A DNA stretch of 64,000 bases from a virus. The notes beneath the pieces were generated by a model. It saw only the letters and a program-made list of their open reading frames with translations, did not search any database and was not told the DNA's origin. The translations under genes were made by a program, and so were the position numbers. Positions 10,179-64,000 of this stretch are shown in pieces. Each line of letters begins with the position of its first letter. The stretch's first letter is position 1. The stretch lies in the IMG/VR virus record IMGVR_UViG_3300032241_002083, positions 25,717 through 89,716 of that record. The stretch is one strand, 5' to 3'.

Positions 10179-10649
10179 TTAAGCGGTAATATTTAATACC
10201 TCTAATTCAAGTTCGCCAGCAGGAGTATTGACTTTTACAACATCACCTATAACCTTACCAATTAAGGCTTGCGCAACTGGACTATTAACGGATATTTTTC
10301 CTTCTTTAATATTCGTTTCTAAATGTGGAACTATTGTATAAGAAATTTCTTTATTTAATTTCTTATTTTTAAGATTAACCGTAGTTAATATTTGAACTGA
10401 ATCAGTTTGAATAAATTCGTGGTTAATAACCACAGAATTAAGAAGTATTTCTTGTAATTTTTGTATTCTATCGTTTACAGAATCATATTTTTCTTTGGCC
10501 GCATCATATTCAGCATTTTCAGAAAGATCACCTTTATCACGAGCTTCTGCAATATCTTCAATACATTCACGAACCTCAACAGTCTTTAAATGATTAATTT
10601 CGAAATGTAATTTCTCCATTCCTTCTTTTGTTAAAAATGTTTTAGACAT
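10179..10649 (-). CDS. greA: Transcription elongation factor GreA
   Basis: ARDKGDLSENAEYDAAKE, ISVNSPVAQALIGK, TPAG. Confidence 0.95.
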   Translation of the reverse strand: MSKTFLTKEGMEKLHFEINHLKTVEVRECIEDIAEARDKGDLSENAEYDAAKEKYDSVNDRIQKLQEILLNSVVINHEFIQTDSVQILTTVNLKNKKLNKEISYTIVPHLETNIKEGKISVNSPVAQALIGKVIGDVVKVNTPAGELELEVLNITA

Positions 10650-55868: not shown

Positions 55869-57138
55869 CAACGAAGATTTGTATATTACGGTAATGTTTC
55901 CATACCCATCCTCAGATGGGTTGCATATAGGACATGTTTATAATTATGCTATAATGGATAGTTGGTGTCGATATAAAAGACACATCGGAAATTCTGTTTA
56001 TCAGCCTTTCGGCTTTGATGCGTTCGGCTTGCCCGCTGAAAACTATGCCAAAAAAGTAGGACGAGATCCAAAAGATGTAACTTATGAAAACATAGAAAAG
56101 TTCCGTATTCAAATGAAACAAATGAATACAGAATTCAAAGAAGTATTGATTACCTCTGACCCTTCTTATCAAAAATGGACTCAATGGTTGTTTTTGAAAT
56201 TGAAAGAGCATGGTTTGGCTTATAAAAAAGATGGTGAAGTAAATTACTGTCCTTCTTGTGAAACTGTATTGGCTCGTGAACAAGTAAAAGATGGTAAATG
56301 TGATAGATGTAGTTCTGTCATTGAAATGAAAGTTATGAATCAGTGGTATTTTAAAATTACTGATTATAAACAACGTTTGATTGATAATTTAGATAAAATT
56401 GATTATCCTACTTCTACTATTAATGCACAACGCATGTGGTTGGAAAACTTGCATGATTGGTGCGTAAGTCGTCAAAGAAAATGGGGTTGTCCAATTCCAA
56501 TTGAAGGTGAAGAAGATACAATGGATACTTTTGTTTGTTCCTCTTATTATTTAATCCGTTATTGTGACCCTGATAACGAAAATGAATTGTGTTCCAAAGA
56601 TAAATACAAACAAGTTGATATTTATGTTGGCGGCAATGAACATGCGACAGGACATTTAATATTCGCCCGTTTTATAAATATGTTTTTGTATGATATTGGC
56701 GTGGTTCCTTGTGAGGAACCCGTAAAGAGGTTCTTTAGTCAGGGAGTTATATTATATAATGGCGAAAAAATGTCAAAATCAAAAGGAAATACTATAAACC
56801 CAGACGATTATGATCAGGACGAATTACGCTTTTTTCTTATGCAACTTGGTCCGTATTCTGACGGTGGCTCCTGGAATGATAAAGCGATAAATGGAATCAA
56901 ACGATTTATCAATAGATTTAAAGAATGGATGAGCAGAGAGGGCGAAGATGTAATAGATGTAGAAACATTTAGAATAAAGATATTTGAACTAACAGAAAAA
57001 ATGAAATTTAATAAAGTGGTATCTGAATTTTTTATTCTTTTGAATTCTAATAGAACGAAAAATCTTAAACCAGAAATCAAGGAAGAATTAATCTCTATAT
57101 TGGAGATATATATGCCTGGATTGAGAGATAAGTTATAA
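55861..57138 (+). CDS. leuS: Minimal leucyl-tRNA synthetase (425 aa; lacks CP1 editing and C-terminal domains)
   Basis: MFPYPS..LHIGH, GFDAFGLPAENYA, Zn knuckle CPSC..CDRC, DWCVSRQR.WG.PIP, MDTF..SS, GG.EHA..HL..ARF, KMSKSKGN. Confidence 0.85.
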   Translation: MYNNEDLYITVMFPYPSSDGLHIGHVYNYAIMDSWCRYKRHIGNSVYQPFGFDAFGLPAENYAKKVGRDPKDVTYENIEKFRIQMKQMNTEFKEVLITSDPSYQKWTQWLFLKLKEHGLAYKKDGEVNYCPSCETVLAREQVKDGKCDRCSSVIEMKVMNQWYFKITDYKQRLIDNLDKIDYPTSTINAQRMWLENLHDWCVSRQRKWGCPIPIEGEEDTMDTFVCSSYYLIRYCDPDNENELCSKDKYKQVDIYVGGNEHATGHLIFARFINMFLYDIGVVPCEEPVKRFFSQGVILYNGEKMSKSKGNTINPDDYDQDELRFFLMQLGPYSDGGSWNDKAINGIKRFINRFKEWMSREGEDVIDVETFRIKIFELTEKMKFNKVVSEFFILLNSNRTKNLKPEIKEELISILEIYMPGLRDKL

Positions 57139-57148
57139 TAAGAAAGTC

Positions 57149-57190
57149 ATAGGAGCAAAATATTCAAAATCCTCATTATAAAATTTATTA
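57149..57190 (+). repeat. 42-nt exact copy of 45625-45666
   Basis: ATAGGAGCAAAATATTCAAAATCCTCATTATAAAATTTATTA at both loci. Confidence 0.9.
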
Positions 57191-57257
57191 CCTAAAAAAT
57201 ATAATAATTTTAATGTTTTTTATAAAGTAATAGGCGTTATTAGTCCAAGAAAATAGT

Positions 57258-57464
57258 ATGAGATTAGATAGAATGCGATGGTTTGGTCCATCAAGACCCG
57301 AAGATAAGCCAGGTGTAGAAGGTTGGCGACACAGCAGATTATTCAAAGTAGTTAGGCATCAAGGTGCTAAAGCTATTCGTGCTATAAGCAAAAAATTATG
57401 TAAGAAATCTATATCAGATAATGATATAGATTTTCCTACGTCTAAATATATAAGAAATCACTAA
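57258..57464 (+). CDS. Basic hypothetical protein
   Basis: ORF track. Confidence 0.5.
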   Translation: MRLDRMRWFGPSRPEDKPGVEGWRHSRLFKVVRHQGAKAIRAISKKLCKKSISDNDIDFPTSKYIRNH

Positions 57465-57515
57465 TGGATATAAAATTAATAGGTATTTGGAATGATTCAG
57501 ATTCAATTTTAGAAG

Positions 57516-57692
57516 ATGGCGAATAAAAATAAAAAACCACGAGATATAATTAAAGAAACTGAAGAATATTTAGTTTTCCTTAAAAAGAGATTAGATTCAG
57601 CCAATTATAAAGCCAATGTTTCCAAAGAAGAATATGATGAAACAAAGGCTAAATATGATAAGGCTAAATTAAGATTAAAACTATTAAAGTAA
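57516..57692 (+). CDS. 58-aa coiled-coil protein resembling the ValRS C-terminal tRNA-binding arm
   Basis: IIKETEEYLVFLKKRLDSANYKANVSKEEYDETKAKYDKAKLRLKLLK; below the ORF-track size cutoff. Confidence 0.45.
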   Translation: MANKNKKPRDIIKETEEYLVFLKKRLDSANYKANVSKEEYDETKAKYDKAKLRLKLLK

Positions 57693-57746
57693 TAATAAGT
57701 AAGGTTTATGAGTTTTGTATAAAAAATAAAATTTGTGGATTTAAAA

Positions 57747-57932
57747 ATGACTGGTAAAGCAATCATGAAATTCAACGGTGGGCTTGGCTCTATCATTTGT
57801 TCCAAATGTGGAGTTATAATTAAAACAGGTAAAAATTTTACTGACGAAGAGTGGAAAGCAATTAGATGAGAATTGAAATTAAAGGCACAATTTTGTGATT
57901 CTTGTAAAGCAAAATTAAGAGAAGAAAAATAA
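57747..57932 (+). pseudogene. Small Zn-finger gene with in-frame TGA (57867-57869)
   Basis: KFNGGLGSIICSKC...KAIR*ELKLKAQFCDSC: the two CxxC pairs flank the stop. Confidence 0.65.
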
Positions 57933-57977
57933 ATTAAAAATAAAAGCAACCTTAAAGGTTGCTTTTATTTTTAATTT
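57931..57977. terminator. Bidirectional terminator
   Basis: AAATTAAAAATAAAAGCAACCT-TAA-AGGTTGCTTTTATTTTTAATTT. Confidence 0.8.
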
Positions 57978-58288
57978 TAAATTTTATTAATTTCTGTTTT
58001 AACTTCGCTTTCTACATTAGAAGCTTCTGTTTTAACTTCGCTTTCTACATTAGAAGCTTCTGTTTTAACTTCACTTTCGTCTTCTTCTCCTAAATTTAAC
58101 ATATACCTTGTGTAATCTGCTAAACATTTAGTTTCTTCTGAAACGTGTGTTTTTATACTATTAATTTCATTATTAAAATGATTTTTAATATTGTTTTCTA
58201 AATTATCAAATTTAGATGAGATCCCTGAGTTTCTACCAACGAAAAAACCAACTATCAAAGACCCAATTACTAATAAAATTGTAATCAT
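57977..58288 (-). CDS. Membrane-anchored protein with 33-nt (ESEVKTEASNV) tandem repeats
   Basis: N-terminal TM helix; ~2.6 copies of an 11-aa repeat. Confidence 0.65.
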   Translation of the reverse strand: MITILLVIGSLIVGFFVGRNSGISSKFDNLENNIKNHFNNEINSIKTHVSEETKCLADYTRYMLNLGEEDESEVKTEASNVESEVKTEASNVESEVKTEINKI

Positions 58289-58452
58289 AATTTTTATTTT
58301 TTATATAATAAAAAATTTAAAAAGTTTAAAAGATTTGAAATAAATTTTGCTCGTTCAAAACTTTTTCGTAATTTTGTATAAAATAACAAAACAGCAAAAA
58401 AGCACTTTTAGAATATAATATATATAATTATACAAAAAAAGTCAAAATAAAT

Positions 58453-58483
58453 TTTGCGATTACAAAACTTTATTGTATCTTTG
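58453..58483 (+). promoter_or_regulatory. Bacteroidota-type promoter of the tRNA region
   Basis: TTTG (58453)-N19-TATCTTTG (58476). Confidence 0.7.
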
Positions 58484-58598
58484 CTGTATAATAAAAAAGA
58501 TTAAAAATACTTAGTAAGACAGGGTAAATATCTGGACAAGTTTTTAAAAGAAAACAGGATAAATATCTGGACAGTCTGAAAAGTTTTAAAATATAAAA

Positions 58599-58670
58599 TG
58601 CGGGATAGAGCAGTGGTAGCTCGTAAGGCTCATAACCTTAAGGTCATTGGTTCGAATCCAGTTCCTGCAT
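58599..58670 (+). tRNA. tRNA-Met (CAT), initiator-like body
   Basis: TGCGGGA/TCCTGCA acceptor; TAAGG-CTCATAA-CCTTA; GGTTCGAATCC. Confidence 0.9.
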
Positions 58671-58700
58671 CAAATAATAACAATTTTAAAAAATCATAGT

Positions 58701-58793
58701 ATGAAACATTTTAGCTCACATAAACATTCGTTTAAATTCTGGTTTAGTAACCAGGGTTCGGTAGAGTTATGTTTCAATAACAAGACTTCTTAA
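58701..58793 (+). CDS. Leader peptide 1 (MKHFSSHKHSFKFWFSNQGSVELCFNNKTS)
   Basis: Codons 2-16 use only K/H/F/S/W; sits within attenuator hairpins. Confidence 0.75.
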   Translation: MKHFSSHKHSFKFWFSNQGSVELCFNNKTS

Positions 58794-58850
58794 AAAGAGT
58801 TATTGTAAGAAACTGAAAAAGCCGAACTTTTATAAAAGTTCGGCTTTTTT
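58702..58850 (+). promoter_or_regulatory. Transcription attenuator 1 (protector, antiterminator, terminator)
   Basis: 58702-58717 pairs with 58764-58776; GGGTTCGGT (58754-62) pairs with GCCGAACTT (58821-29); terminator AAAAAGCCGAACTTTT-AT-AAAAGTTCGGCTTTTTT (58816-58850). Confidence 0.8.
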
Positions 58851-58854
58851 ATAT

Positions 58855-58941
58855 GGTGATCGTAGCCGGTAATGGATGCCGACCTGCCTGTGGAGCAGGA
58901 ATAATTTCGATTTAATGCGGGTTCAATTCCCGTCGATCACC
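58855..58941 (+). tRNA. tRNA-His (GTG) with G-1 and a 17-nt variable region
   Basis: G-GTGATCG/CGATCAC-C; CCTGC-CTGTGGA-GCAGG; GGTTCAATTCC. Confidence 0.9.
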
Positions 58942-58947
58942 CAAAAA

Positions 58948-59058
58948 TTAGTTGCCCAGCTTGTTCCGTCAAGGGTTATAAAACTATACATTGTTAACGG
59001 AGCCCATGATGGATACTCTACCAAAAAAGTGAGTGAGAAAAGTTGTAACAATGACTAA
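58948..59058 (+). ncRNA. Candidate structured RNA between tRNA-His and tRNA-Phe
   Basis: Nested pairings TTAGTTG/TGACTAA, CAGCTT/AAGTTG, GTTCCGT/ACGGAGC, TACTC/GAGTG; GC-richer than background. Confidence 0.4.
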
Positions 59059-59064
59059 AAATAA

Positions 59065-59136
59065 GGTGTCGTAACATAGAGGTTTATGTGTTGATCTGAA
59101 AAATCAAAAATGCTAGATCGTTACTAGCCGATACCA
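59065..59136 (+). tRNA. tRNA-Phe (GAA)
   Basis: GGTGTCG/CGATACC; TTGAT-CTGAAAA-ATCAA; T arm GCTAG-ATCGTTA-CTAGC. Confidence 0.85.
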
Positions 59137-59197
59137 CAAAAATAACTTCAAAGGAAGACGAACCTATTTTATATATAAGTAAATAACAAATATAAAA

Positions 59198-60079
59198 ATG
59201 GGTGCGAAATTAAAAGAATGGACAGAAAAAGAAAAGGAAATACTTTTTAAATATTTCCCAAGTATGGGGTGTAATTATTGTTCGAACTTAATAGGAAGAA
59301 CAAAAAGAGCGTGCCAAGAAATGGCAAAAAAACTAAAATTAGAGAGAGATTTAAATAAGTATGAAGATAAGGAAAAATTAGAGGAATTAGTTAAAAGTTG
59401 TAAAACATATACAGATTGTGTAATAAAATTGGGATTATCTCCCAGATGTTCTGGTAATTTTCAAACTATTAAAAAATATATTATGTTGCATAATATAGAT
59501 ATTTCACATTTTGAAAATGGATTTCAAATAGGTAACAACCCTCAGAATAAGAAAGAATTATCTGAAGTTTTAGTAGAAAACTCTTTTTTTAGTAGATCTC
59601 ATTTGAAAGAGAGATTATATAAAGAGGGATTAAAAAAGAAAGAATGTGAGATATGTGGAATGGGAGAAGATTGGTTTAATGGAACAAAAATAGTTCATAT
59701 TTTAGATCATATAAATGGAGAACCTTATGACAATCGTCTTGAAAATTTAAGAATTGTTTGTCCAAATTGTAATTCAACATTAGAAACAAATTGTGTTGGG
59801 AATAAAGTTAATAAAATATATGATTCTAAAAAAGATGAATATAAAAGTGAAAAAACACATAAAAAATGTAATTGTGGTAAAATAATCTTGAAAGAAAGTA
59901 AATTTTGTTTAGAATGTAATGCCAAAAGTAAAAGAAAAGTTATTAATAGACCAACGTTTGAAGAATTGGTTAAGTTAATAGAAGAAAATGGTAATACTGG
60001 AACAGGTAAAATATACGGCGTTAGCGAATCTGTCATAAGAAAATGGTTAAAACAATATAAAAATAAAGCATTAATATAA
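59198..60079 (+). mobile_element. HNH homing endonuclease inserted in the tRNA operon
   Basis: CEICG, LDHING...DNRLENLRIVCPNC, C-terminal HTH. Confidence 0.85.
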
Positions 60080-60081
60080 AT

Positions 60082-60154
60082 ACGGGTATGGTGAAAATGG
60101 CTATCATTTTTGACTCCAAATCAAAAGTTCCGGATTCGAGTTCTGGTGCCCGTG
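60082..60154 (+). tRNA. tRNA-Trp (CCA)
   Basis: ACGGGTA/TGCCCGT; TTTGA-CTCCAAA-TCAAA; CCGGA-TTCGAGT-TCTGG. Confidence 0.9.
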
Positions 60155-60161
60155 CTAAATT

Positions 60162-60244
60162 GGAAGATGCGTTGCATGGAGCAAAAACAGTTTTGAAAAC
60201 TGTCGTATCGTTAATTCGGTAGGGGTCGGTTCCTCCATCTTCCT
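60162..60244 (+). tRNA. tRNA-Ser (TGA), divergent D/T arms
   Basis: GGAAGAT/ATCTTCC; ACAGT-TTTGAAA-ACTGT; long variable region. Confidence 0.7.
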
Positions 60245-60264
60245 CAATATTAAAAAAAATTAAG

Positions 60265-60300
60265 ATGAAACAGATAAAACAGAAACAGAAACAGGTATAA
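60265..60300 (+). CDS. Candidate leader peptide 3 (MKQIKQKQKQV)
   Basis: Four AAA and four CAG codons; followed by a long hairpin and tRNA-Lys(TTT). Confidence 0.45.
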   Translation: MKQIKQKQKQV

Positions 60301-60341
60301 AGTAGGTACAATCAATTGATATGTAGCCTATTTATATAAAT

Positions 60342-60417
60342 GCGCTATTAACTCAATTTGGTTTAGAGTACCAAGCTTTTAACTTGGGAGTTGTAGGTTC
60401 GAGTCCTACATGGCGCA
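60342..60417 (+). tRNA. tRNA-Lys (TTT)
   Basis: GCGCTAT/ATGGCGC; CCAAG-CTTTTAA-CTTGG; GGTTCGAGTCC. Confidence 0.92.
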
Positions 60418-60462
60418 CAAAAATTTTTAGTCAGGTGTTCTACTATATTTTATATATAAAAT

Positions 60463-61074
60463 ATGGGAAAATTTACTAAAAATTATTTAAAAAAATATGA
60501 TTGGGTACAAATACAAAATTATTATAATGAGGGGAATTCATGTAGAGATGTAATCAAAAAATTTGATATATCAAGTGCCGGATTGTCTTTTGCGGTAAAA
60601 TCTGGGGTTCTAAGAACTAGGACAAAAAGTGATTCAAATATATTAGGGCATAAAAAATTTCCACAAAAACATTCTGATTCAACCAAAAAAAAGATAAGTG
60701 AAAGTAGAATTAAATATTTGAAAGATAATCCAGATAAAGTTCCGTATTTATTAAACCATAGTAGTAGGGAATCTTATCCTGAAAAATATTTTTGGGAAAT
60801 ATTTGAAAAAGAAAATTTAAATATTAAAAGATATCTTCAAGTAGGATTATATGAATTAGATTTTTATAACCTTGATAAAAAAATAGATATTGAAATAGAC
60901 GGTGAGCAACATTTCACAGATAAAAAAATAGTTGAGTCTGATAAAAGAAGAAACAGTTATTTAATTGATAATGGATGGACAATAATTAGAATTAGATGGT
61001 CGAATTATCAAAAATTAAATTTTGAAGAAAAGAATAAATATATTGAAGAATTAAAGAAAAAATTGGTTTCGTAG
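60463..61074 (+). mobile_element. DUF559/Vsr-like endonuclease with NUMOD3 motif
   Basis: KHSDSTKKKISES, S.PE, YELDF, IEIDGEQH, D..R...L...GW.IIRI. Confidence 0.8.
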
Positions 61075-61138
61075 CTTAAATGGATAAAGCTCCCGACTCT
61101 TAATCGGAGGACTGTGATATCGTACCTCACCGAAACCA
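61065..61138 (+). tRNA. tRNA-Lys (CTT)
   Basis: GGTTTCG/CGAAACC; CCCGA-CTCTTAA-TCGGG; T loop ATCGTAC; 5' end overlaps the upstream ORF end. Confidence 0.85.
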
Positions 61139-61151
61139 CAAAAATAAAAAT

Positions 61152-61394
61152 ATGGAAAATTATAAATCAATAATAGAGCAACATAAAGTTCAAATAGGAA
61201 ATTATATTATTTCTTCAAAAGACCAATTAGAAGAATACCGAAAAAAGTATTTAAGCGCAAATGGTGTTGTAAAACAAGTTTATAATCAATTAAAACAAGT
61301 TCCTGCGGAAAACAGGAAGCAAGCAGGAGAATTGTTAAGAGAATTAAAATACTTAGCAGAAAATTATTACGAAAAAAACCAAAACAAGACATAA
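61152..61394 (+). CDS. Stand-alone PheRS alpha-subunit N-terminal coiled-coil-like protein
   Basis: LEEYRKKYLSANG.V...Y..LK.VPAENRKQAG..L.ELK matches the PheS N-terminal LE..R..YL.KKG.....LP.EER...G..IN.LK pattern. Confidence 0.7.
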   Translation: MENYKSIIEQHKVQIGNYIISSKDQLEEYRKKYLSANGVVKQVYNQLKQVPAENRKQAGELLRELKYLAENYYEKNQNKT

Positions 61395-61415
61395 AAATTA
61401 TAATATATATATAGT

Positions 61416-61475
61416 ATGAAAATAACATTAACATCGTCAAGTCGCAGTCCTTATAACTTCGAAATCCGAAGATGA
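61416..61475 (+). CDS. Leader peptide 2 (MKITLTSSSRSPYNFEIRR)
   Basis: TCG TCA AGT CGC AGT core plus CGA AGA; sits within attenuator hairpins. Confidence 0.75.
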   Translation: MKITLTSSSRSPYNFEIRR

Positions 61476-61532
61476 TAGTGTTATGTAGATACTTCAAAAC
61501 TCGGATTTTAAAAAAAATCCGAGTTTTTTTTT
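61422..61532 (+). promoter_or_regulatory. Transcription attenuator 2
   Basis: 61422-61435 pairs with 61471-61484 (13/14); AAATCCGA (61462-69) pairs with TCGGATTT (61501-08); terminator AAAACTCGGATTTT-AAAA-AAAATCCGAGTTTTTTTTT (61496-61532). Confidence 0.8.
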
Positions 61533-61534
61533 AT

Positions 61535-61623
61535 GGTGGGTTACTCAAGAGGATTAAAGAGGCTTGTTTGCTAAACAAGTAGGGCAGTAAAATGTTGCGT
61601 GGGTTCGAATCCCACATCCACCG
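61535..61623 (+). tRNA. tRNA-Ser (GCT)
   Basis: GGTGGGT/ATCCACC-G; CTTGT-TTGCTAA-ACAAG; long variable arm; GGTTCGAATCC. Confidence 0.92.
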
Positions 61624-61629
61624 CTGAAT

Positions 61630-61858
61630 ATCCAGATAGTTTAATTGGAAAGAACGATCCTAAAACGGCAGGATTACTCTGTGAGGGATTTTGACTTGCT
61701 ACCAAAGGCATTCAAATTATGGTTGTATTTCAACCGTTGTAAGACCAATGGGTGTGAGGATTAATTGTATGGTTGCGGATGCACTGATATAAAATCAGGA
61801 AGCGAGTTTTCCAAGATTAATTGCAAAATCTATACGGGTTCGAGCCCCGTTCTGGATA
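61630..61858 (+). ncRNA. tRNA-shell ncRNA B (229 nt) with a giant structured insert
   Basis: ATCCAGA/TCTGGAT-A acceptor; TAGTTTAATTGGAAAGAAC D arm; ACGGG-TTCGAGC-CCCGT T arm; insert closed by GGATTTTG/CAAAATCT. Confidence 0.75.
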
Positions 61859-61866
61859 CAAAAAAT

Positions 61867-61953
61867 GGCTCCATAGTTTAATGGATTTAAAACGCCCCGC
61901 TACGAACGGGGAGACAGATATGTTTTATGAGGGTTCGAATCCTTCTGGAGTCA
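61867..61953 (+). tRNA. tRNA-Arg (ACG) with a long variable arm
   Basis: GGCTCCA/TGGAGTC; CCCCG-CTACGAA-CGGGG; variable AGACA-GATA-TGTTT. Confidence 0.9.
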
Positions 61954-61959
61954 CTATAA

Positions 61960-62048
61960 GGAAAGATGGCAGAGCGGTTGAATGCTTCGGTCTTGAAAAC
62001 CGATGACTGGCGTAAGTCGGTCCGTGGGTTCGAAACCCACTCTTTCCT
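61960..62048 (+). tRNA. tRNA-Ser (TGA)
   Basis: GGAAAGA/TCTTTCC; TCGGT-CTTGAAA-ACCGA; long variable arm. Confidence 0.92.
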
Positions 62049-62054
62049 CTTACT

Positions 62055-62143
62055 GGAGAGTATAGGAGGTGACAGGTGGTCCCCGCTCGTTTGGAAAACG
62101 AGAACCCATTAGGTTGGGCGAGTTTCGATTATTCTGCTCTCCT
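62055..62143 (+). tRNA. tRNA-Ser (GGA), divergent
   Basis: GGAGAGT/GCTCTCC; CTCGT-TTGGAAA-ACGAG; TTCGATT loop. Confidence 0.75.
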
Positions 62144-62323
62144 CTTTAAAATTAATTTAAAAATGAAAGTTAAACAACAAATTAGAGAAAAATTCCGGAA
62201 TTTACTGCTGAAAATCTTTATAAAAAGATTAAATCCAGTTATGAAATAGCATATAAAAAATCTGAAAGACTTTAACAAAATAAAAATATGTTAAAGTCAA
62301 TTTAATTTTGTATATTTGTATTT

Positions 62324-62671
62324 ATGAGTAAAGTAAAATCTTATCAAATAATGTCTAAAATAAAACTGGTTCGCAAAGTTTTAGATTATGGTTTTCGAAA
62401 AGCTTTGGAATATTCTGATTTTGGTGAGGAAGAAGAATATACAAAAAGTCTAGAAACTAAGACGAAAGAAGAATTGAGAGAAATTATAAAGGAACTTAAA
62501 GACGAATTAAATGCTGGTTCTGTTAGAAACCAAAACCCAGGTTTAAAGTTTTGTATAGGTAAATGTCAAAGAGAGTATATTCCAAAAGATGGTAATTTAG
62601 AAGTTTATTGTCCGTCATGTGATAGGACAATAGCGGTTAGACCTATTAAAAATGATTATAAGGATATATGA
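62324..62671 (+). CDS. Hypothetical protein with C-terminal Zn ribbon
   Basis: CIGKC...CPSC; preceded by TATATTTG. Confidence 0.6.
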   Translation: MSKVKSYQIMSKIKLVRKVLDYGFRKALEYSDFGEEEEYTKSLETKTKEELREIIKELKDELNAGSVRNQNPGLKFCIGKCQREYIPKDGNLEVYCPSCDRTIAVRPIKNDYKDI

Positions 62672-62825
62672 TTAAAAGAATAAGAAATTGGACTGATAAG
62701 TCTTTTGAAAATAGGCAATATTTTATAGCACTATGGAACTATGCCGAGATATTTTATTTTTATTGTATTAAGTTTAACTCTTTTATCTATATGGATAGGA
62801 TTTAAAATTGGAATGAAATTTTTAT

Positions 62826-63056
62826 ATGGGAAAGAAAAATAAAGAGTTTGATATAGAAAGGTCAGAATATGACGATAAGGTTGAGGAAATCCGCAAAAAG
62901 AAAAGAAAGTTGCGAGATATCCAAGAACCTGGTCTTGTTAAAAAGATTAAAAAGGATCTTAAAGCCGAGCAACGTGCGGCAAAGCGTTCTAATAAGAATG
63001 CACTTCGTAATTATTTAAAAGACGAAATAAATAAATATGATGATGGAGAAGAATAG
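62826..63056 (+). CDS. Basic coiled-coil hypothetical protein
   Basis: ORF track. Confidence 0.6.
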   Translation: MGKKNKEFDIERSEYDDKVEEIRKKKRKLRDIQEPGLVKKIKKDLKAEQRAAKRSNKNALRNYLKDEINKYDDGEE

Positions 63057-63294
63057 AATGCAATTTATTTCTAAAAAAGAATTAAAATTAGGTGAAATTT
63101 GTTATATAGAAAAAAACAAGGTTTATTTTTTAGAAAAAAATGAATCATGGAAAGACAAAGGCAGACCTTCTACTCATTTAATTTATGATGAAGAAGATGC
63201 ATTAGTATTTACTCTTAATTCTGAATTATTAGAAGAATACTTTATGAGTGTGGCAGAGTATCGTGATACTCAAATAAATTCAATTTTAGATTAA
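63037..63294 (+). CDS. Hypothetical protein with EYRDTQINSILD tag
   Basis: Motif family. Confidence 0.65.
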   Translation: MMMEKNRMQFISKKELKLGEICYIEKNKVYFLEKNESWKDKGRPSTHLIYDEEDALVFTLNSELLEEYFMSVAEYRDTQINSILD

Positions 63295-63296
63295 TT

Positions 63297-63536
63297 ATGG
63301 GTAGTTTAACATCGATGATAAATGATTTATATGATGATTATGTTTATTTTTGTAAAACTCTAAATGTAGAATCAGTCGGAATGCATGATAATAAAATATC
63401 ATTTTTAATACATGAATATCAATTATTGGAGAAAATAGGATTTAAGACAAAAGAAGATTTTTATGAAGTTTTAAGAAAGGCGGAAAATCGTGATAAAAAA
63501 ATAAAAGAGATTTTAGATGATAAAATGCATATGTAG
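63297..63536 (+). CDS. Hypothetical protein with ENRDKKIKEILDD tag
   Basis: Motif family. Confidence 0.65.
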   Translation: MGSLTSMINDLYDDYVYFCKTLNVESVGMHDNKISFLIHEYQLLEKIGFKTKEDFYEVLRKAENRDKKIKEILDDKMHM

Positions 63537-63759
63537 AGAATCATTATCTTTTTTAAAAAAAGATTCAATTTATTATGTAGATATTGCTTTATCTAAAACA
63601 AATTATCCTGATGAATTATTTACGGATTATTTAGAAGTTTTTGATTCAGAAGAAAAATATCTTGGTGGGTTTTGGATAGATAAAGATAGGTATTTTATTG
63701 ATATATCTGAATTTAGGGATGAAAGAATAAATCAAATTTTAGATGAGAAAGGTGATTAA
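63517..63759 (+). CDS. Hypothetical protein with EFRDERINQILDE tag
   Basis: Motif family. Confidence 0.65.
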   Translation: MIKCICRESLSFLKKDSIYYVDIALSKTNYPDELFTDYLEVFDSEEKYLGGFWIDKDRYFIDISEFRDERINQILDEKGD

Positions 63760-64000
63760 TAAATTGAAGGTAGTTATCATTAAAGATATTTATTTTGAAT
63801 TTGATATAAATAGTTTAAGATTGGCATCTGGTTATATTTATGATTTAGAAATTTGTGAATCAGGCACTTATACATTCTTAATTAGTGACCCCAAAATCCT
63901 TCCGGTTAATGCTACAAATACATGTTACTTCTATAAAGCGGAATGTGAAAGTATTGAAATTTCAAAATATTTTTGCACATTAGCCGAATGGCGAGAATTA
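63752..64000 (+). CDS. Hypothetical protein (3'-truncated) ending YFCTLAEWREL
   Basis: GTG start overlapping upstream stop; frame open to window end; start of the family motif. Confidence 0.6.
   Translation, partial: MINKLKVVIIKDIYFEFDINSLRLASGYIYDLEICESGTYTFLISDPKILPVNATNTCYFYKAECESIEISKYFCTLAEWREL

What the first reader, a model, noticed from the sequence alone, without database searches (positions are those of the whole stretch)
61416..61623. Attenuator 2: Ser/Arg leader upstream of a Ser/Arg tRNA operon
Core codons TCG TCA AGT CGC AGT (and later CGA) cover both Ser codon boxes and CGN Arg, matching Ser(GCT), Ser(TGA) and Arg(ACG) downstream; GC-rich TCG/CGC codons are unexpected in so AT-rich a genome. 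Protector 61422-35:61471-84 plus CTTCG/CGAAG sequester AAATCCGA, which can pair with TCGGATTT of the terminator. Its sequence is unrelated to attenuator 1 but the logic is the same, which argues against chance.
Basis: partly seen in the sequence, partly recalled or inferred. Interest (0 to 1): 0.85.

Follow-up and report, generated by a model that had tools for sequence, protein, structure and literature searches.

The report
Leader-peptide attenuator gating phage Ser/Arg tRNAs
A tiny serine/arginine-rich test gene wired to a switchable transcription stop sits directly in front of a giant phage's serine and arginine tRNA genes, so the phage probably makes these tRNAs only when ribosomes run short of them, a trp-operon-style control that I could not find described for tRNA genes.

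Summary
At 61416-61475 a 19-codon ORF (MKITLTSSSRSPYNFEIRR) is followed by a strong hairpin plus 9 T (61496-61532) that ends 2 nt before tRNA-Ser(GCT). tRNA-Arg(ACG), Ser(TGA) and Ser(GGA) follow.

Main evidence:
- **Orthologues.** All four orthologous loci found keep the ORF. Length changes are whole codons only, one of them an added Arg codon, and Ser codons are swapped synonymously.
- **Covariation.** One terminator base co-varies with both its terminator partner and its antiterminator partner.
- **Folding.** With a ribosome modelled as stalled on the Ser/Arg codons, a 9-bp antiterminator captures the terminator's 5' arm. A ribosome at the stop codon covers that strand.
- **Generality.** In the window and two related phage records I picked out 16 such units by eye. 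Each leader is enriched in the amino acids of the tRNAs behind it. The true leader-operon pairing is the single best of 5040 permutations in each record.
- **Distant phages.** LR756504.1 and LR756501.1 have analogous units; the Lak-C1 region examined has none.

No RNA or experimental data exist, and the window copy lacks the promoter its relatives have. This scan noted the same kind of element before on other phage DNA. Five literature searches found no published account.

The parts
61397..61415 (+). AT-rich block directly upstream of the leader ATG. It is conserved in the relatives, but the window has no Bacteroidota-type promoter box here.
   Evidence: Searches show the ATATATA-containing block invariant in 4 sequences. 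One search finds no TTTG-N17-21-TAnnTTTG within 150 nt upstream in the window, whereas G001 and G002 have one ending 49 and 44 nt before the ATG.
61416..61475 (+). Leader ORF of 19 codons plus TGA stop: MKITLTSSSRSPYNFEIRR.
   Evidence: It is intact in 4 of 4 orthologous loci, with whole-codon length changes only.
61434..61448 (+). Regulatory codons TCG TCA AGT CGC AGT (Ser Ser Ser Arg Ser), read by the downstream Ser(TGA), Ser(GCT) and Arg(ACG) tRNAs.
   Evidence: codon-level match. CGC is 0.88 and TCG 3.04 per 1000 codons in this phage.
61476..61478 (+). Second in-frame stop (TAG) right after TGA. The tandem TGA-TAG is identical in all five loci.
61422..61438 (+). Protector helix, 5' strand. 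It overlaps codons 3-8.
   Evidence: MFE folds. Protector plus terminator is the full-length MFE in W, G001, G002 and L012.
61468..61484 (+). Protector helix, 3' strand. It spans the stop codons.
61461..61469 (+). Antiterminator 5' strand GAAATCCGA, 4-12 nt before the stop codon.
   Evidence: it pairs with 61501-61509 when codons 7-11 are masked by a modelled ribosome; 0 of 300 shuffles do as well; 94% of cells pair across 4 sequences, with one compensatory pair.
61473..61496 (+). Inner hairpin enclosed by the antiterminator.
   Evidence: helix 2: 100% of cells paired, with one pair changed on both sides.
61496..61527 (+). Intrinsic terminator hairpin: 14 bp with a 4-nt loop. Its 5' arm, 61496-61509, is shared with the antiterminator.
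   Evidence: -15.7 to -16.3 kcal/mol; 3 pairs changed on both sides across 4 sequences.
61524..61532 (+). Run of 9 T. The first 4 are in the stem. The run ends 2 nt before the tRNA.
61535..61624 (+). tRNA-Ser(GCT), the first gene behind the terminator.
61631..61866 (+). tRNA-like element with a large insert, inside the operon. It is not part of the switch.
   Evidence: Its core is conserved in lake metagenome contigs.
61867..61954 (+). tRNA-Arg(ACG).
61960..62049 (+). tRNA-Ser(TGA).
62055..62144 (+). tRNA-Ser(GGA).

Best explanation
This is a ribosome-mediated (leader-peptide) transcription attenuator whose output is a tRNA operon: Ser(GCT), Arg(ACG), Ser(TGA), Ser(GGA).

Proposed mechanism:
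- **tRNAs plentiful.** RNA polymerase transcribes the 19-codon leader while a ribosome translates it. If Ser- and Arg-tRNAs are plentiful, the ribosome runs to the TGA-TAG stops. There it covers the strand GAAATCCGA (61461-69). The terminator hairpin 61496-61527 then forms and transcription ends in the T run, 2 nt before the first tRNA.
- **tRNAs scarce.** If the ribosome stalls on TCG TCA AGT CGC AGT (61434-48), it opens the protector helix but leaves 61461-69 free. That strand captures the terminator's 5' arm (61501-09) before the 3' arm is made, and polymerase reads on into the tRNA genes.
- **Feedback.** The tRNAs made are the ones that relieve the stall, so the loop is a negative feedback on tRNA supply.

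Shown here: the parts, their conservation, the covariation, and the leader-to-tRNA matching across operons. Inferred: translation of the ORF, termination, read-through, and the nature of the signal.
For: 1. **Anatomy.** ORF, protector, antiterminator, terminator and T run lie in the classical order. There is no room for a promoter between the terminator and the tRNA.
2. **Modelled ribosome positions.** With the A site on any of codons 7-11, the nascent RNA folds into the antiterminator (-15.3 kcal/mol, against -15.7 to -16.3 for the terminator). With the ribosome at the stop, only a -1.1 kcal/mol structure remains. Without a ribosome the protector forms (-15.8) and 0 nt of the terminator arm are paired. 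0 of 300 shuffles of the intervening segment give an equally good antiterminator.
3. **Orthologues.** 4 of 4 orthologous loci keep the ORF: MKTISSSSRSSLTLEIQR, MNTIFSSSRSSFNFEIRR, MKTLLSSSRRSSLTLEIQR, MKTLLSSSRSSLTLEIQR. Lengths are 18-19 codons. L010 has one extra in-frame CGT. Synonymous swaps occur among TCG/TCA/TCT and AGT/AGC. CGC is kept in all five. The pattern used to find them did not include the Ser/Arg codons or the ATG.
4. **Covariation.** Alignment column 48 (window 61502) changes C to U, together with G to A in both its antiterminator partner and its terminator partner.
5. **A promoter precedes the leader in relatives.** A TTTG-N17-21-TAnnTTTG box ends 44-49 nt before the ATG in G001 and G002 by regex. 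The same box is seen by eye in L010 and L012. So in those relatives the order is promoter, leader, terminator, tRNAs.
6. **Generality.** I identified 16 leader-terminator units by eye in W, G001 and G002. Each leader is rich in the amino acids of the tRNAs behind it. The real pairing is the unique maximum of 5040 permutations in G001 and again in G002, at both amino-acid and codon level. 15 of the 16 give an antiterminator pairing with the terminator's 5' arm.
7. **Unrelated huge phages.** LR756504.1 and LR756501.1 carry analogous units, for example IAMIIRMRIIR before Arg, Ile, Met, and IAIVEIAVIGGAEEGV before Glu, Ala, Ile, Val, Gly.
Against: - No RNA data exist for this phage, so translation, termination and read-through are untested.
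- The window copy has no promoter box within 150 nt of the leader. Here the unit must be reached by read-through from upstream, past the stand-alone PheS-N ORF.
- Only 7 of the 18 residues after Met are Ser or Arg. Only 6 of 18 codons are read by the downstream tRNAs. AGA (61470-72) is not read by them, and the window leader has no TCT/TCC codon for Ser(GGA).
- The covariation rests on 4 sequences from about 3 lineages. 21 of 500 shuffles reach the observed covariation score for the antiterminator.
- In G001, 23 of 300 shuffles give as good an antiterminator.
- In the truncated folds without a ribosome, the protector is the MFE only in W and L012, not in G001 or G002. The default state without translation may therefore differ between relatives.
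- At equilibrium the terminator always wins, so the switch depends on kinetics that I cannot compute.
- The G001 and G002 permutation tests are not independent, because the records are related. I also chose the leader ORFs by eye.
Confidence: 0.78

Rival explanations
1. The hairpin is a plain, leaky terminator or insulator that ends the upstream transcription unit. The small ORF is a conserved micro-protein gene, or a translated spacer, with no regulatory link to the tRNAs.
For: The hairpin plus T run is a good intrinsic terminator in its own right. In the window it follows a protein gene (61152-61394) with no promoter in between. At equilibrium the terminator is always the most stable fold.
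Against: The tRNAs start 2 nt after the T run, with no promoter of their own. In G001 and G002 (regex) and L010 and L012 (by eye) a promoter box sits in front of the leader, so a terminator about 150 nt later would be pointless. The peptides of the different operons share composition rules rather than sequence, and that composition follows the tRNA set: 1 of 5040 permutations. An antiterminator copy is present in 15 of 16 units.
Confidence: 0.08
2. The structured leader is an RNA-processing platform that helps cut out the 5' end of the first tRNA, for example as an RNase III, RNase E or RNase P guide. The ORF is incidental.
For: The hairpins end 4-21 nt before the first tRNA in every unit. Phage tRNA precursors do need processing (general knowledge, recalled).
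Against: This does not explain the conserved reading frame, the whole-codon indels and the synonymous Ser codon swaps. It does not explain the tandem stops at a fixed distance from the hairpin: 18-27 nt in the 15 units where the script picked the true terminator. It does not explain the amino-acid matching. tRNAs inside the operons lack such hairpins.
Confidence: 0.05
3. The switch is a real attenuator, but it reports general translation stress or amino-acid starvation (uncharged tRNA) rather than the amount of Ser/Arg tRNA. The phage uses it to time tRNA synthesis during infection.
For: Leader-peptide attenuators respond to charged tRNA, whatever lowers it (established for his and trp; recalled). 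The only tRNA array with described regulation that I found, in Anabaena, is induced by translation stress (abstract of PMC10272220; passages of PMC8421152).
Against: Each operon has its own leader written in its own amino acids. That is needless for a global stress signal. Making more tRNA does not relieve amino-acid starvation.
Confidence: 0.07
4. The element is a ribosome-independent riboswitch that binds tRNA directly, in the manner of a T-box.
For: It is a terminator/antiterminator switch in front of translation-apparatus genes, and its codons match tRNA anticodons.
Against: No T-box or other Rfam family matches 61395-61534 at E up to 1. The only hit there is a chance palindrome match to a microRNA model. 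The start codon, frame, stop position and multi-codon runs point to translation.
Confidence: 0.02

Closest known systems
Multivalent leader-peptide attenuators of enterobacterial amino-acid operons (ilvGMEDA: Ile/Val/Leu; thr: Thr/Ile; also trp, his, leu, pheA). Recalled from textbook knowledge, not from a call.
   Same: Both have a short ORF with runs of regulatory codons for more than one amino acid, a protector, an antiterminator and a terminator in series, and a stop codon placed so that a finishing ribosome blocks the antiterminator.
   Different: Here the regulated genes are tRNAs, not biosynthetic enzymes, so the product acts directly on the sensor. The element is in a phage. No Rfam leader family matches it. 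The promoters in relatives are of the Bacteroidota type.
pheST attenuator (pheM leader) of E. coli, which controls phenylalanyl-tRNA synthetase. Recalled.
   Same: Leader-peptide attenuation applied to a gene of the translation apparatus, sensing the charged cognate tRNA.
   Different: The output there is a synthetase protein, with one amino acid and a bacterial chromosome. Here the output is the tRNAs themselves, with two amino acids and four isoacceptor families.
T-box riboswitches. Recalled.
   Same: A terminator/antiterminator decision driven by tRNA status, placed upstream of translation-related genes.
   Different: A T-box binds uncharged tRNA directly, without a ribosome or an ORF. No T-box match was found here.
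Inducible tRNA array (trn operon) of Anabaena sp. PCC 7120.
   Same: An accessory block of tRNA genes that is off by default and switched on when translation is impaired (abstract of PMC10272220; passages of PMC8421152).
   Different: Control there acts at the promoter, through direct repeats bound by the repressor TrcR. The words attenuat-, leader and terminator occur 0 times in PMC8421152.
The other leader-terminator units of the same phage clade, and of LR756504.1 and LR756501.1.
   Same: They have the same architecture and the same rule that the leader is written in the amino acids of the tRNAs behind it. Attenuator 1 of this window (58702-58849) is one of them.
   Different: The sequences are unrelated. 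Some (the Gln, Leu/Met and large Leu-Ile-Arg-Val-Asn-Thr-Cys units) have no protector in the fold. In those, no translation would mean read-through.

Membership tests
Ribosome-mediated (leader-peptide) transcription attenuator | A short ORF with start and stop inside the leader transcript, kept in frame among relatives. | tested here: met
   The 19-codon ORF is at 61416-61475. It is intact in 4 of 4 orthologous loci, with whole-codon indels only.
Ribosome-mediated (leader-peptide) transcription attenuator | Clustered regulatory codons cognate to what the operon supplies. | tested here: met
   The Ser Ser Ser Arg Ser run is read by the downstream Ser(TGA), Ser(GCT) and Arg(ACG) tRNAs. Leader-operon pairing is the unique best of 5040 permutations in G001 and in G002.
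Ribosome-mediated (leader-peptide) transcription attenuator | An intrinsic terminator between the ORF and the regulated genes. | tested here: met
   A 14-bp hairpin plus 9 T ends 2 nt before the tRNA. It is kept with 3 compensatory pairs in 4 sequences.
Ribosome-mediated (leader-peptide) transcription attenuator | A mutually exclusive antiterminator that uses the terminator's 5' arm and is occluded by a ribosome at the stop codon. | tested here: met
   61461-69 pairs with 61501-09 in masked folds. 0 of 300 shuffles do as well. One compensatory pair is shared with the terminator. This is modelling only.
Ribosome-mediated (leader-peptide) transcription attenuator | A promoter directly upstream, so that the leader heads the transcript. 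| tested here: inconclusive
   The promoter box is present in G001 and G002 by regex and in L010 and L012 by eye. It is absent within 150 nt in the window itself.
Ribosome-mediated (leader-peptide) transcription attenuator | Demonstrated translation of the leader and regulated read-through. | not testable with these tools
   No RNA run is listed for this DNA.
Rfam amino-acid operon leader families (His, Thr, Trp, Leu and similar leaders) | A match to the family covariance model. | tested here: not met
   No leader family matches 61395-61534 at E up to 1. The only leader hit in 56000-64000 is Thr_leader on the minus strand at 58812-58927, at 24.1 bits against a gathering score of 55.
T-box riboswitch | Stem I with specifier loop and the conserved T-box sequence, as scored by the Rfam model. 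| tested here: not met
   No T-box match in 56000-64000 at E up to 1.

The most novel reading that the evidence does not exclude
Huge phages may run a modular, codon-resolved tRNA homeostat. Nearly every tRNA operon would be gated by its own mini-gene that samples the codons its tRNAs read. The phage would then sense, operon by operon, when a class of host tRNA is missing and replace exactly that class on demand. The cause of the shortage could be codon-usage mismatch, phage-induced host shut-off or host anticodon nucleases. On this reading the Ser/Arg unit is one sensor of a counter-defence and surveillance network, and the leaders could serve as natural reporters of the tRNA pool in uncultured hosts.
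Probability: 0.3. Interest if true: 0.92.

Novelty: new variant of a known kind. Interest (0 to 1): 0.82.

Why it matters
Leader-peptide attenuation is a textbook mechanism, but it is known as a control of amino-acid biosynthesis and a few related protein genes. Here the regulated product is the tRNA itself, which closes a direct feedback loop between decoding speed and tRNA supply.

This would explain how giant phages with 40 or more tRNA genes avoid making them blindly. It gives a testable rule: the leader's composition predicts the tRNA set behind it. It also bears on the open question of why phages carry tRNAs, whether for codon-usage compensation or to replace tRNAs lost to defence systems or shut-off.

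The rule holds in several unrelated huge-phage lineages. Per earlier notes of this scan, which I did not check, it also holds in phiCbK-like phages. So it may be a general and overlooked layer of phage gene regulation. The leaders could also be used to annotate tRNA operons and odd tRNA-like genes in metagenomic phages.

Tried and rejected
- **RNA evidence.** The look-up of sequencing runs listed no RNA holder. One DNA run is probably the source sample, and 19 hold small shares.
- **Laying contigs.** Read laying on four DNA runs did not cover the leader. One 151-nt contig of X5 covers 61492-61642 and differs in the terminator (2 letters put in behind 61514, 2 left out at 61524). It adds nothing on the ORF.
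- **Close relatives in the phage collection.** None were found. The best matches were homing-endonuclease and tRNA pieces at 69-80% identity.
- **Neighbour-protein searches in IMG/VR.** Searches found only the two records G001 and G002. L004 was a 37% partial match that I did not examine.
- **Pattern scans.** Searches returned 9 stretches. Five are copies of G001 or G002, two are new orthologues (L010, L012), and three (L007 and L008, which are the same sequence, and L011) are chance matches in coding DNA with no leader.
- **Phage-specific promoter idea.** I tested whether the conserved AATATAATATATA block before the ATG is a phage-specific promoter. It is not enriched in the window: 6 matches against 4.2 expected.
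- **Rfam.** No leader, T-box or group I intron match in 56000-64000.
- **Lak-C1.** By my eye, none of the 12 tRNA cluster starts listed in the 16-kb region shows a leader plus terminator.
- **LR756501.1.** I saw only one clear unit among the five regions examined.
- **The Lys/Gln mini-ORF (60265-60300).** I left it out of the permutation test because its hairpin has no T run.
- **Choice of start.** For the G002 Asp/Pro/Gln leader I used the internal ATG at 10280 rather than the longer ORF from 10208, by likeness to G001.
- **Literature.** Searches (listings only) showed no paper on leader-peptide control of tRNA genes. I read the abstract and outline of PMC10272220 and find-passages of PMC8421152. 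Supplements were not consulted. Statements about the trp, his, ilv, thr and pheST attenuators, about T-boxes and about the Bacteroidota promoter consensus are recalled.
Full report
**What is there.** The window is the last 64 kb of an 89.7-kb IMG/VR virus record that CheckV rates 17% complete. GC content is 22-32%. Together these point to a fragment of a very large, AT-rich phage.

Ten tRNA genes lie on the + strand between 58599 and 62144. At 61416-61475 there is a 19-codon ORF, MKITLTSSSRSPYNFEIRR, ending in TGA and followed at once by TAG. Codons 7-11 are TCG TCA AGT CGC AGT (61434-48).

A 14-bp hairpin (61496-61509 with 61514-61527) with a run of nine T (61524-32) ends 2 nt before tRNA-Ser(GCT) at 61535. 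Behind it lie a tRNA-like element with a large insert, then tRNA-Arg(ACG), Ser(TGA) and Ser(GGA).

The 140-nt leader folds to -36.5 kcal/mol, with z -6.99, and 0 of 200 shuffles fold as well. In 53 long ORFs of this record, CGC is used 0.88 times and TCG 3.04 times per 1000 codons.

**Alternative structures.** The full-length minimum-energy fold is protector (61422-38 with 61468-84) plus terminator. The same holds in the three relatives that reach the terminator.

I then folded the nascent RNA up to the terminator loop, with the stretch covered by a ribosome forbidden to pair:
- **A site on any of codons 7-11.** GAAATCCGA (61461-69) pairs with TCGGATTTT (61501-09) of the terminator's 5' arm and encloses a small hairpin. 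The energy is -15.3 kcal/mol, against -15.7 to -16.3 for the terminator.
- **Ribosome at the stop codon.** That strand is covered and only -1.1 kcal/mol of structure remains.
- **No ribosome.** The protector forms (-15.8 kcal/mol) and the terminator arm is free.

None of 300 shuffles of the segment between the ribosome and the terminator gives as good an antiterminator. The last Ser codon ends at 61448. A ribosome there would reach to about 61460, just short of the antiterminator strand. The geometry is that of the trp and his attenuators. At equilibrium the terminator always wins, so the decision must be kinetic, as in the classical cases.

**Relatives.** A neighbouring protein led to a 190-kb record, G001. 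DNA patterns led to a 159-kb record, G002, and to two metagenome contigs, L010 and L012. The pattern covers only the antiterminator and stop region, not the Ser/Arg codons or the ATG. Three further hits (L007 and L008, which are the same sequence, and L011) are chance matches inside coding DNA.

All four orthologous loci keep the ORF:

| Locus | Leader peptide |
|---|---|
| G001 | MKTISSSSRSSLTLEIQR |
| G002 | MNTIFSSSRSSFNFEIRR |
| L010 | MKTLLSSSRRSSLTLEIQR |
| L012 | MKTLLSSSRSSLTLEIQR |

- Lengths differ by whole codons only.
- L010 has an extra CGT (Arg) inserted in frame.
- The Ser positions use TCG, TCA, TCT, AGT or AGC interchangeably.
- CGC and the tandem TGA-TAG are kept in all.

In each locus that extends far enough, tRNA-Ser(GCT) follows the terminator.

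On a four-sequence alignment, the antiterminator pairs in 96.6% of cells and the terminator in 92.7%. Sliding the partners by one to three columns drops these to 20-64%. Column 48 (window 61502) is C in W and G002 and U in G001 and L012. Both its antiterminator partner (column 14) and its terminator partner (column 67) change from G to A with it. That is a three-way covariation, as expected if both pairings matter. With only four sequences the shuffle controls are modest: 21 of 500 shuffles reach the covariation score for the antiterminator and 2 of 500 for the terminator.

**Promoters.** G001 and G002 have a TTTG-N17-21-TAnnTTTG box ending 49 and 44 nt before the leader ATG. L010 and L012 show the same box by eye. 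From memory, this is the consensus of Bacteroidota housekeeping promoters.

So in the relatives the order is promoter, leader, terminator, tRNAs. A plain end-of-gene terminator would make no sense in that order. The window copy lacks the box: about 45 nt seem to be missing after the preceding ORF. Here the unit must be reached from an upstream promoter, the nearest box being at 58453. This is the main oddity of the window's own copy.

**The same logic at the other operons.** I listed the DNA upstream of every tRNA preceded by a gap of more than 110 nt, in the window's last 9 kb and in 80 kb of G001 and G002. By eye I found 16 units, each a short ORF plus a hairpin and T run just before the first tRNA.

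| Leader core or peptide | tRNAs behind it | Found in |
|---|---|---|
| KHFSSHKHSFKFWF | His, Phe, Trp, then Lys | all three records (the window's attenuator 1, 58702-58849) |
| the Ser/Arg leader | Ser, Arg, Ser, Ser | all three records |
| GAYEAGYAYEG | Tyr, Tyr, Glu, Glu, Glu, Gly, Ala, Ala | G001 and G002 (core shown from G001) |
| NINRNNNTINLVINNVNTLCVIR | Leu, Ile, Arg, Val, Asn, Thr, Cys tRNAs | G001 and G002 (core shown from G001) |
| NLNMNLLNLM | Leu, Leu, Leu, Met | G001 and G002 |
| PQQQPDQDPD | Pro, Asp, Pro | G001 and G002 (core shown from G002) |
| QQQQQ | Gln x3 | G001 and G002 (core shown from G001) |

I scored each leader by the share of its residues, or of its codons under wobble rules, that are served by the tRNAs between it and the next leader. 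The true assignment is the single best of all 5040 permutations in G001: sum 3.08 against a mean of 1.15. It is again the single best in G002: 3.12 against 1.19. The result holds at both amino-acid and codon level. The two records are related, so these are not two independent tests, and I chose the ORFs by eye.

In 15 of 16 units the masked fold gives an antiterminator that uses the terminator's 5' arm. In those 15 units the stop codon lies 18-27 nt before that arm. Shuffles match the antiterminator in 0 of 300 cases for 11 units, and in 1, 2, 5 and 23 of 300 for the others. For the sixteenth unit my script picked the wrong hairpin. Ten of the 16 have the promoter box within 150 nt. The three His/Phe/Trp leaders sit behind a tRNA-Met that has the box.

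**More distant phages.** LR756504.1 (636 kb) has unrelated sequences with the same rule:

| Leader core | tRNAs behind it |
|---|---|
| IAMIIRMRIIR | Arg, Ile, Met |
| IAIVEIAVIGGAEEGV | Glu, Ala, Ile, Val, Gly |
| TTIIRNMNNNINRTRTT | Thr, Asn, Thr, Arg, Arg, Ile, Met |
| KKKK | Lys x3 |
| QQYKQYQPQYK | Tyr, Tyr, Gln |
| FWHFHF | His, Phe |

LR756501.1 (735 kb) has one clear unit, KHSKHFSSSSKWF before Trp, His, His, Phe, Lys, Ser. Most of its clusters have none. The 16-kb tRNA region of Prevotella phage Lak-C1 shows none at the 12 cluster starts listed. The device is therefore widespread but not universal.

**How it most likely works.** A ribosome translating the leader reports how fast Ser and Arg codons are read.
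- Fast reading takes the ribosome to the tandem stops, where it hides the antiterminator strand. The terminator forms and the tRNA genes stay silent.
- Slow reading leaves the ribosome on codons 7-11. The antiterminator forms and the operon is transcribed.

The operon's products are the very tRNAs that read those codons: TCA/TCG by Ser(TGA), AGT by Ser(GCT), and CGC/CGA by Arg(ACG), assuming inosine at position 34. The circuit is therefore a direct negative feedback on tRNA supply.

What lowers the supply cannot be told from sequence. It could be codon-usage mismatch with the host, host shut-off, or defence nucleases that cut anticodon loops. Shown here are the parts, their conservation and the matching rule. 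Translation, termination and the response itself are inferred.

**Comparison with known systems.** The element works like the multivalent leader-peptide attenuators of ilvGMEDA and thr, and like the pheST attenuator that controls a synthetase (recalled). It is not a member of any Rfam leader family or of the T-box family.

The only regulated accessory tRNA array I found in print is the Anabaena trn operon. It is controlled at its promoter by the repressor TrcR (abstract of PMC10272220). The paper describing the array contains no mention of attenuation, leaders or terminators (PMC8421152). Five full-text searches listed no paper on leader-peptide control of tRNA genes.

Earlier notes of this scan report the same kind of element on other phage DNA, including phiCbK-like phages and other lake phages, and likewise found no published account. 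I did not check those claims. My verdict rests on the calls above.

**Verdict.** I rate it a new variant of a known kind. I put the attenuator reading at about 0.78. The remaining doubt is the complete lack of expression data and the missing promoter in the window's own copy.

Noticed in passing
window 58702-58849: Attenuator 1. The ORF MKHFSSHKHSFKFWFSNQGSVELCFNNKTS plus a 17-bp terminator ends 4 nt before the position ARAGORN gives for tRNA-His (58856). Phe, Trp and Lys tRNAs follow. The peptide is nearly identical in G001, G002, L010 and L012, while the terminator stems differ by compensatory changes.
   Followed up: partly
window 60265-60341: Mini-ORF MKQIKQKQKQV (Lys/Gln) 42 nt before tRNA-Lys(TTT), followed by a hairpin (-12 kcal/mol, z -3.6) without a T run. 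It is conserved in G001 (MKQYKQIKQKQ), G002 (MKQIKRKQKQVS) and L010. It may be a weaker or different kind of gate.
   Followed up: partly
window 61631-61866: tRNA-like RNA with intact acceptor, D and T arms but a roughly 155-nt structured insert after a non-canonical anticodon-position hairpin. G002 has the same element. G001 keeps only the 3' remnant. The core of the insert recurs in contigs of three lake or freshwater metagenome runs. There is no Rfam match.
   Followed up: partly
window 61152-61394: Stand-alone 80-aa ORF that is only the N-terminal domain of the PheRS alpha subunit (PF02912, E 1.1e-11). In G001 it follows a gene whose C-terminus looks like seryl-tRNA synthetase by eye; I did not test that.
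   Followed up: partly
window 59198-60079 and 60463-61074: Homing-endonuclease-type ORFs sit between tRNA genes inside the operons. The first has weak HNH hits below Pfam cut-offs. The second matches DUF559 (E 3.2e-10).
   Followed up: partly
window 58346-58483: Two Bacteroidota-type promoter boxes (TTTG-N19-TAnnTTTG) lie in tandem before tRNA-Met. The first is followed by the same AT-rich block that precedes the leader ATGs, but with no ATG. It may be a decayed leader. G001 has the same arrangement.
   Followed up: no
L047 2412-2485 (G001) and L003 4643-4732 (G001): The related phage G001 carries a tRNA with anticodon CTA, an amber suppressor by anticodon. It also carries a Ser-type tRNA that ARAGORN reads with a four-base anticodon, ctga. 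The leader's tandem TGA-TAG stop may matter if TAG is read through.
   Followed up: no
L056-L059 (LR756501.1): In this 735-kb phage, several of the tRNA cluster starts listed are preceded by a repeated motif (agttctttgac-N-t-N-ttgaaata) instead of a leader and terminator. It is possibly a dedicated promoter.
   Followed up: no
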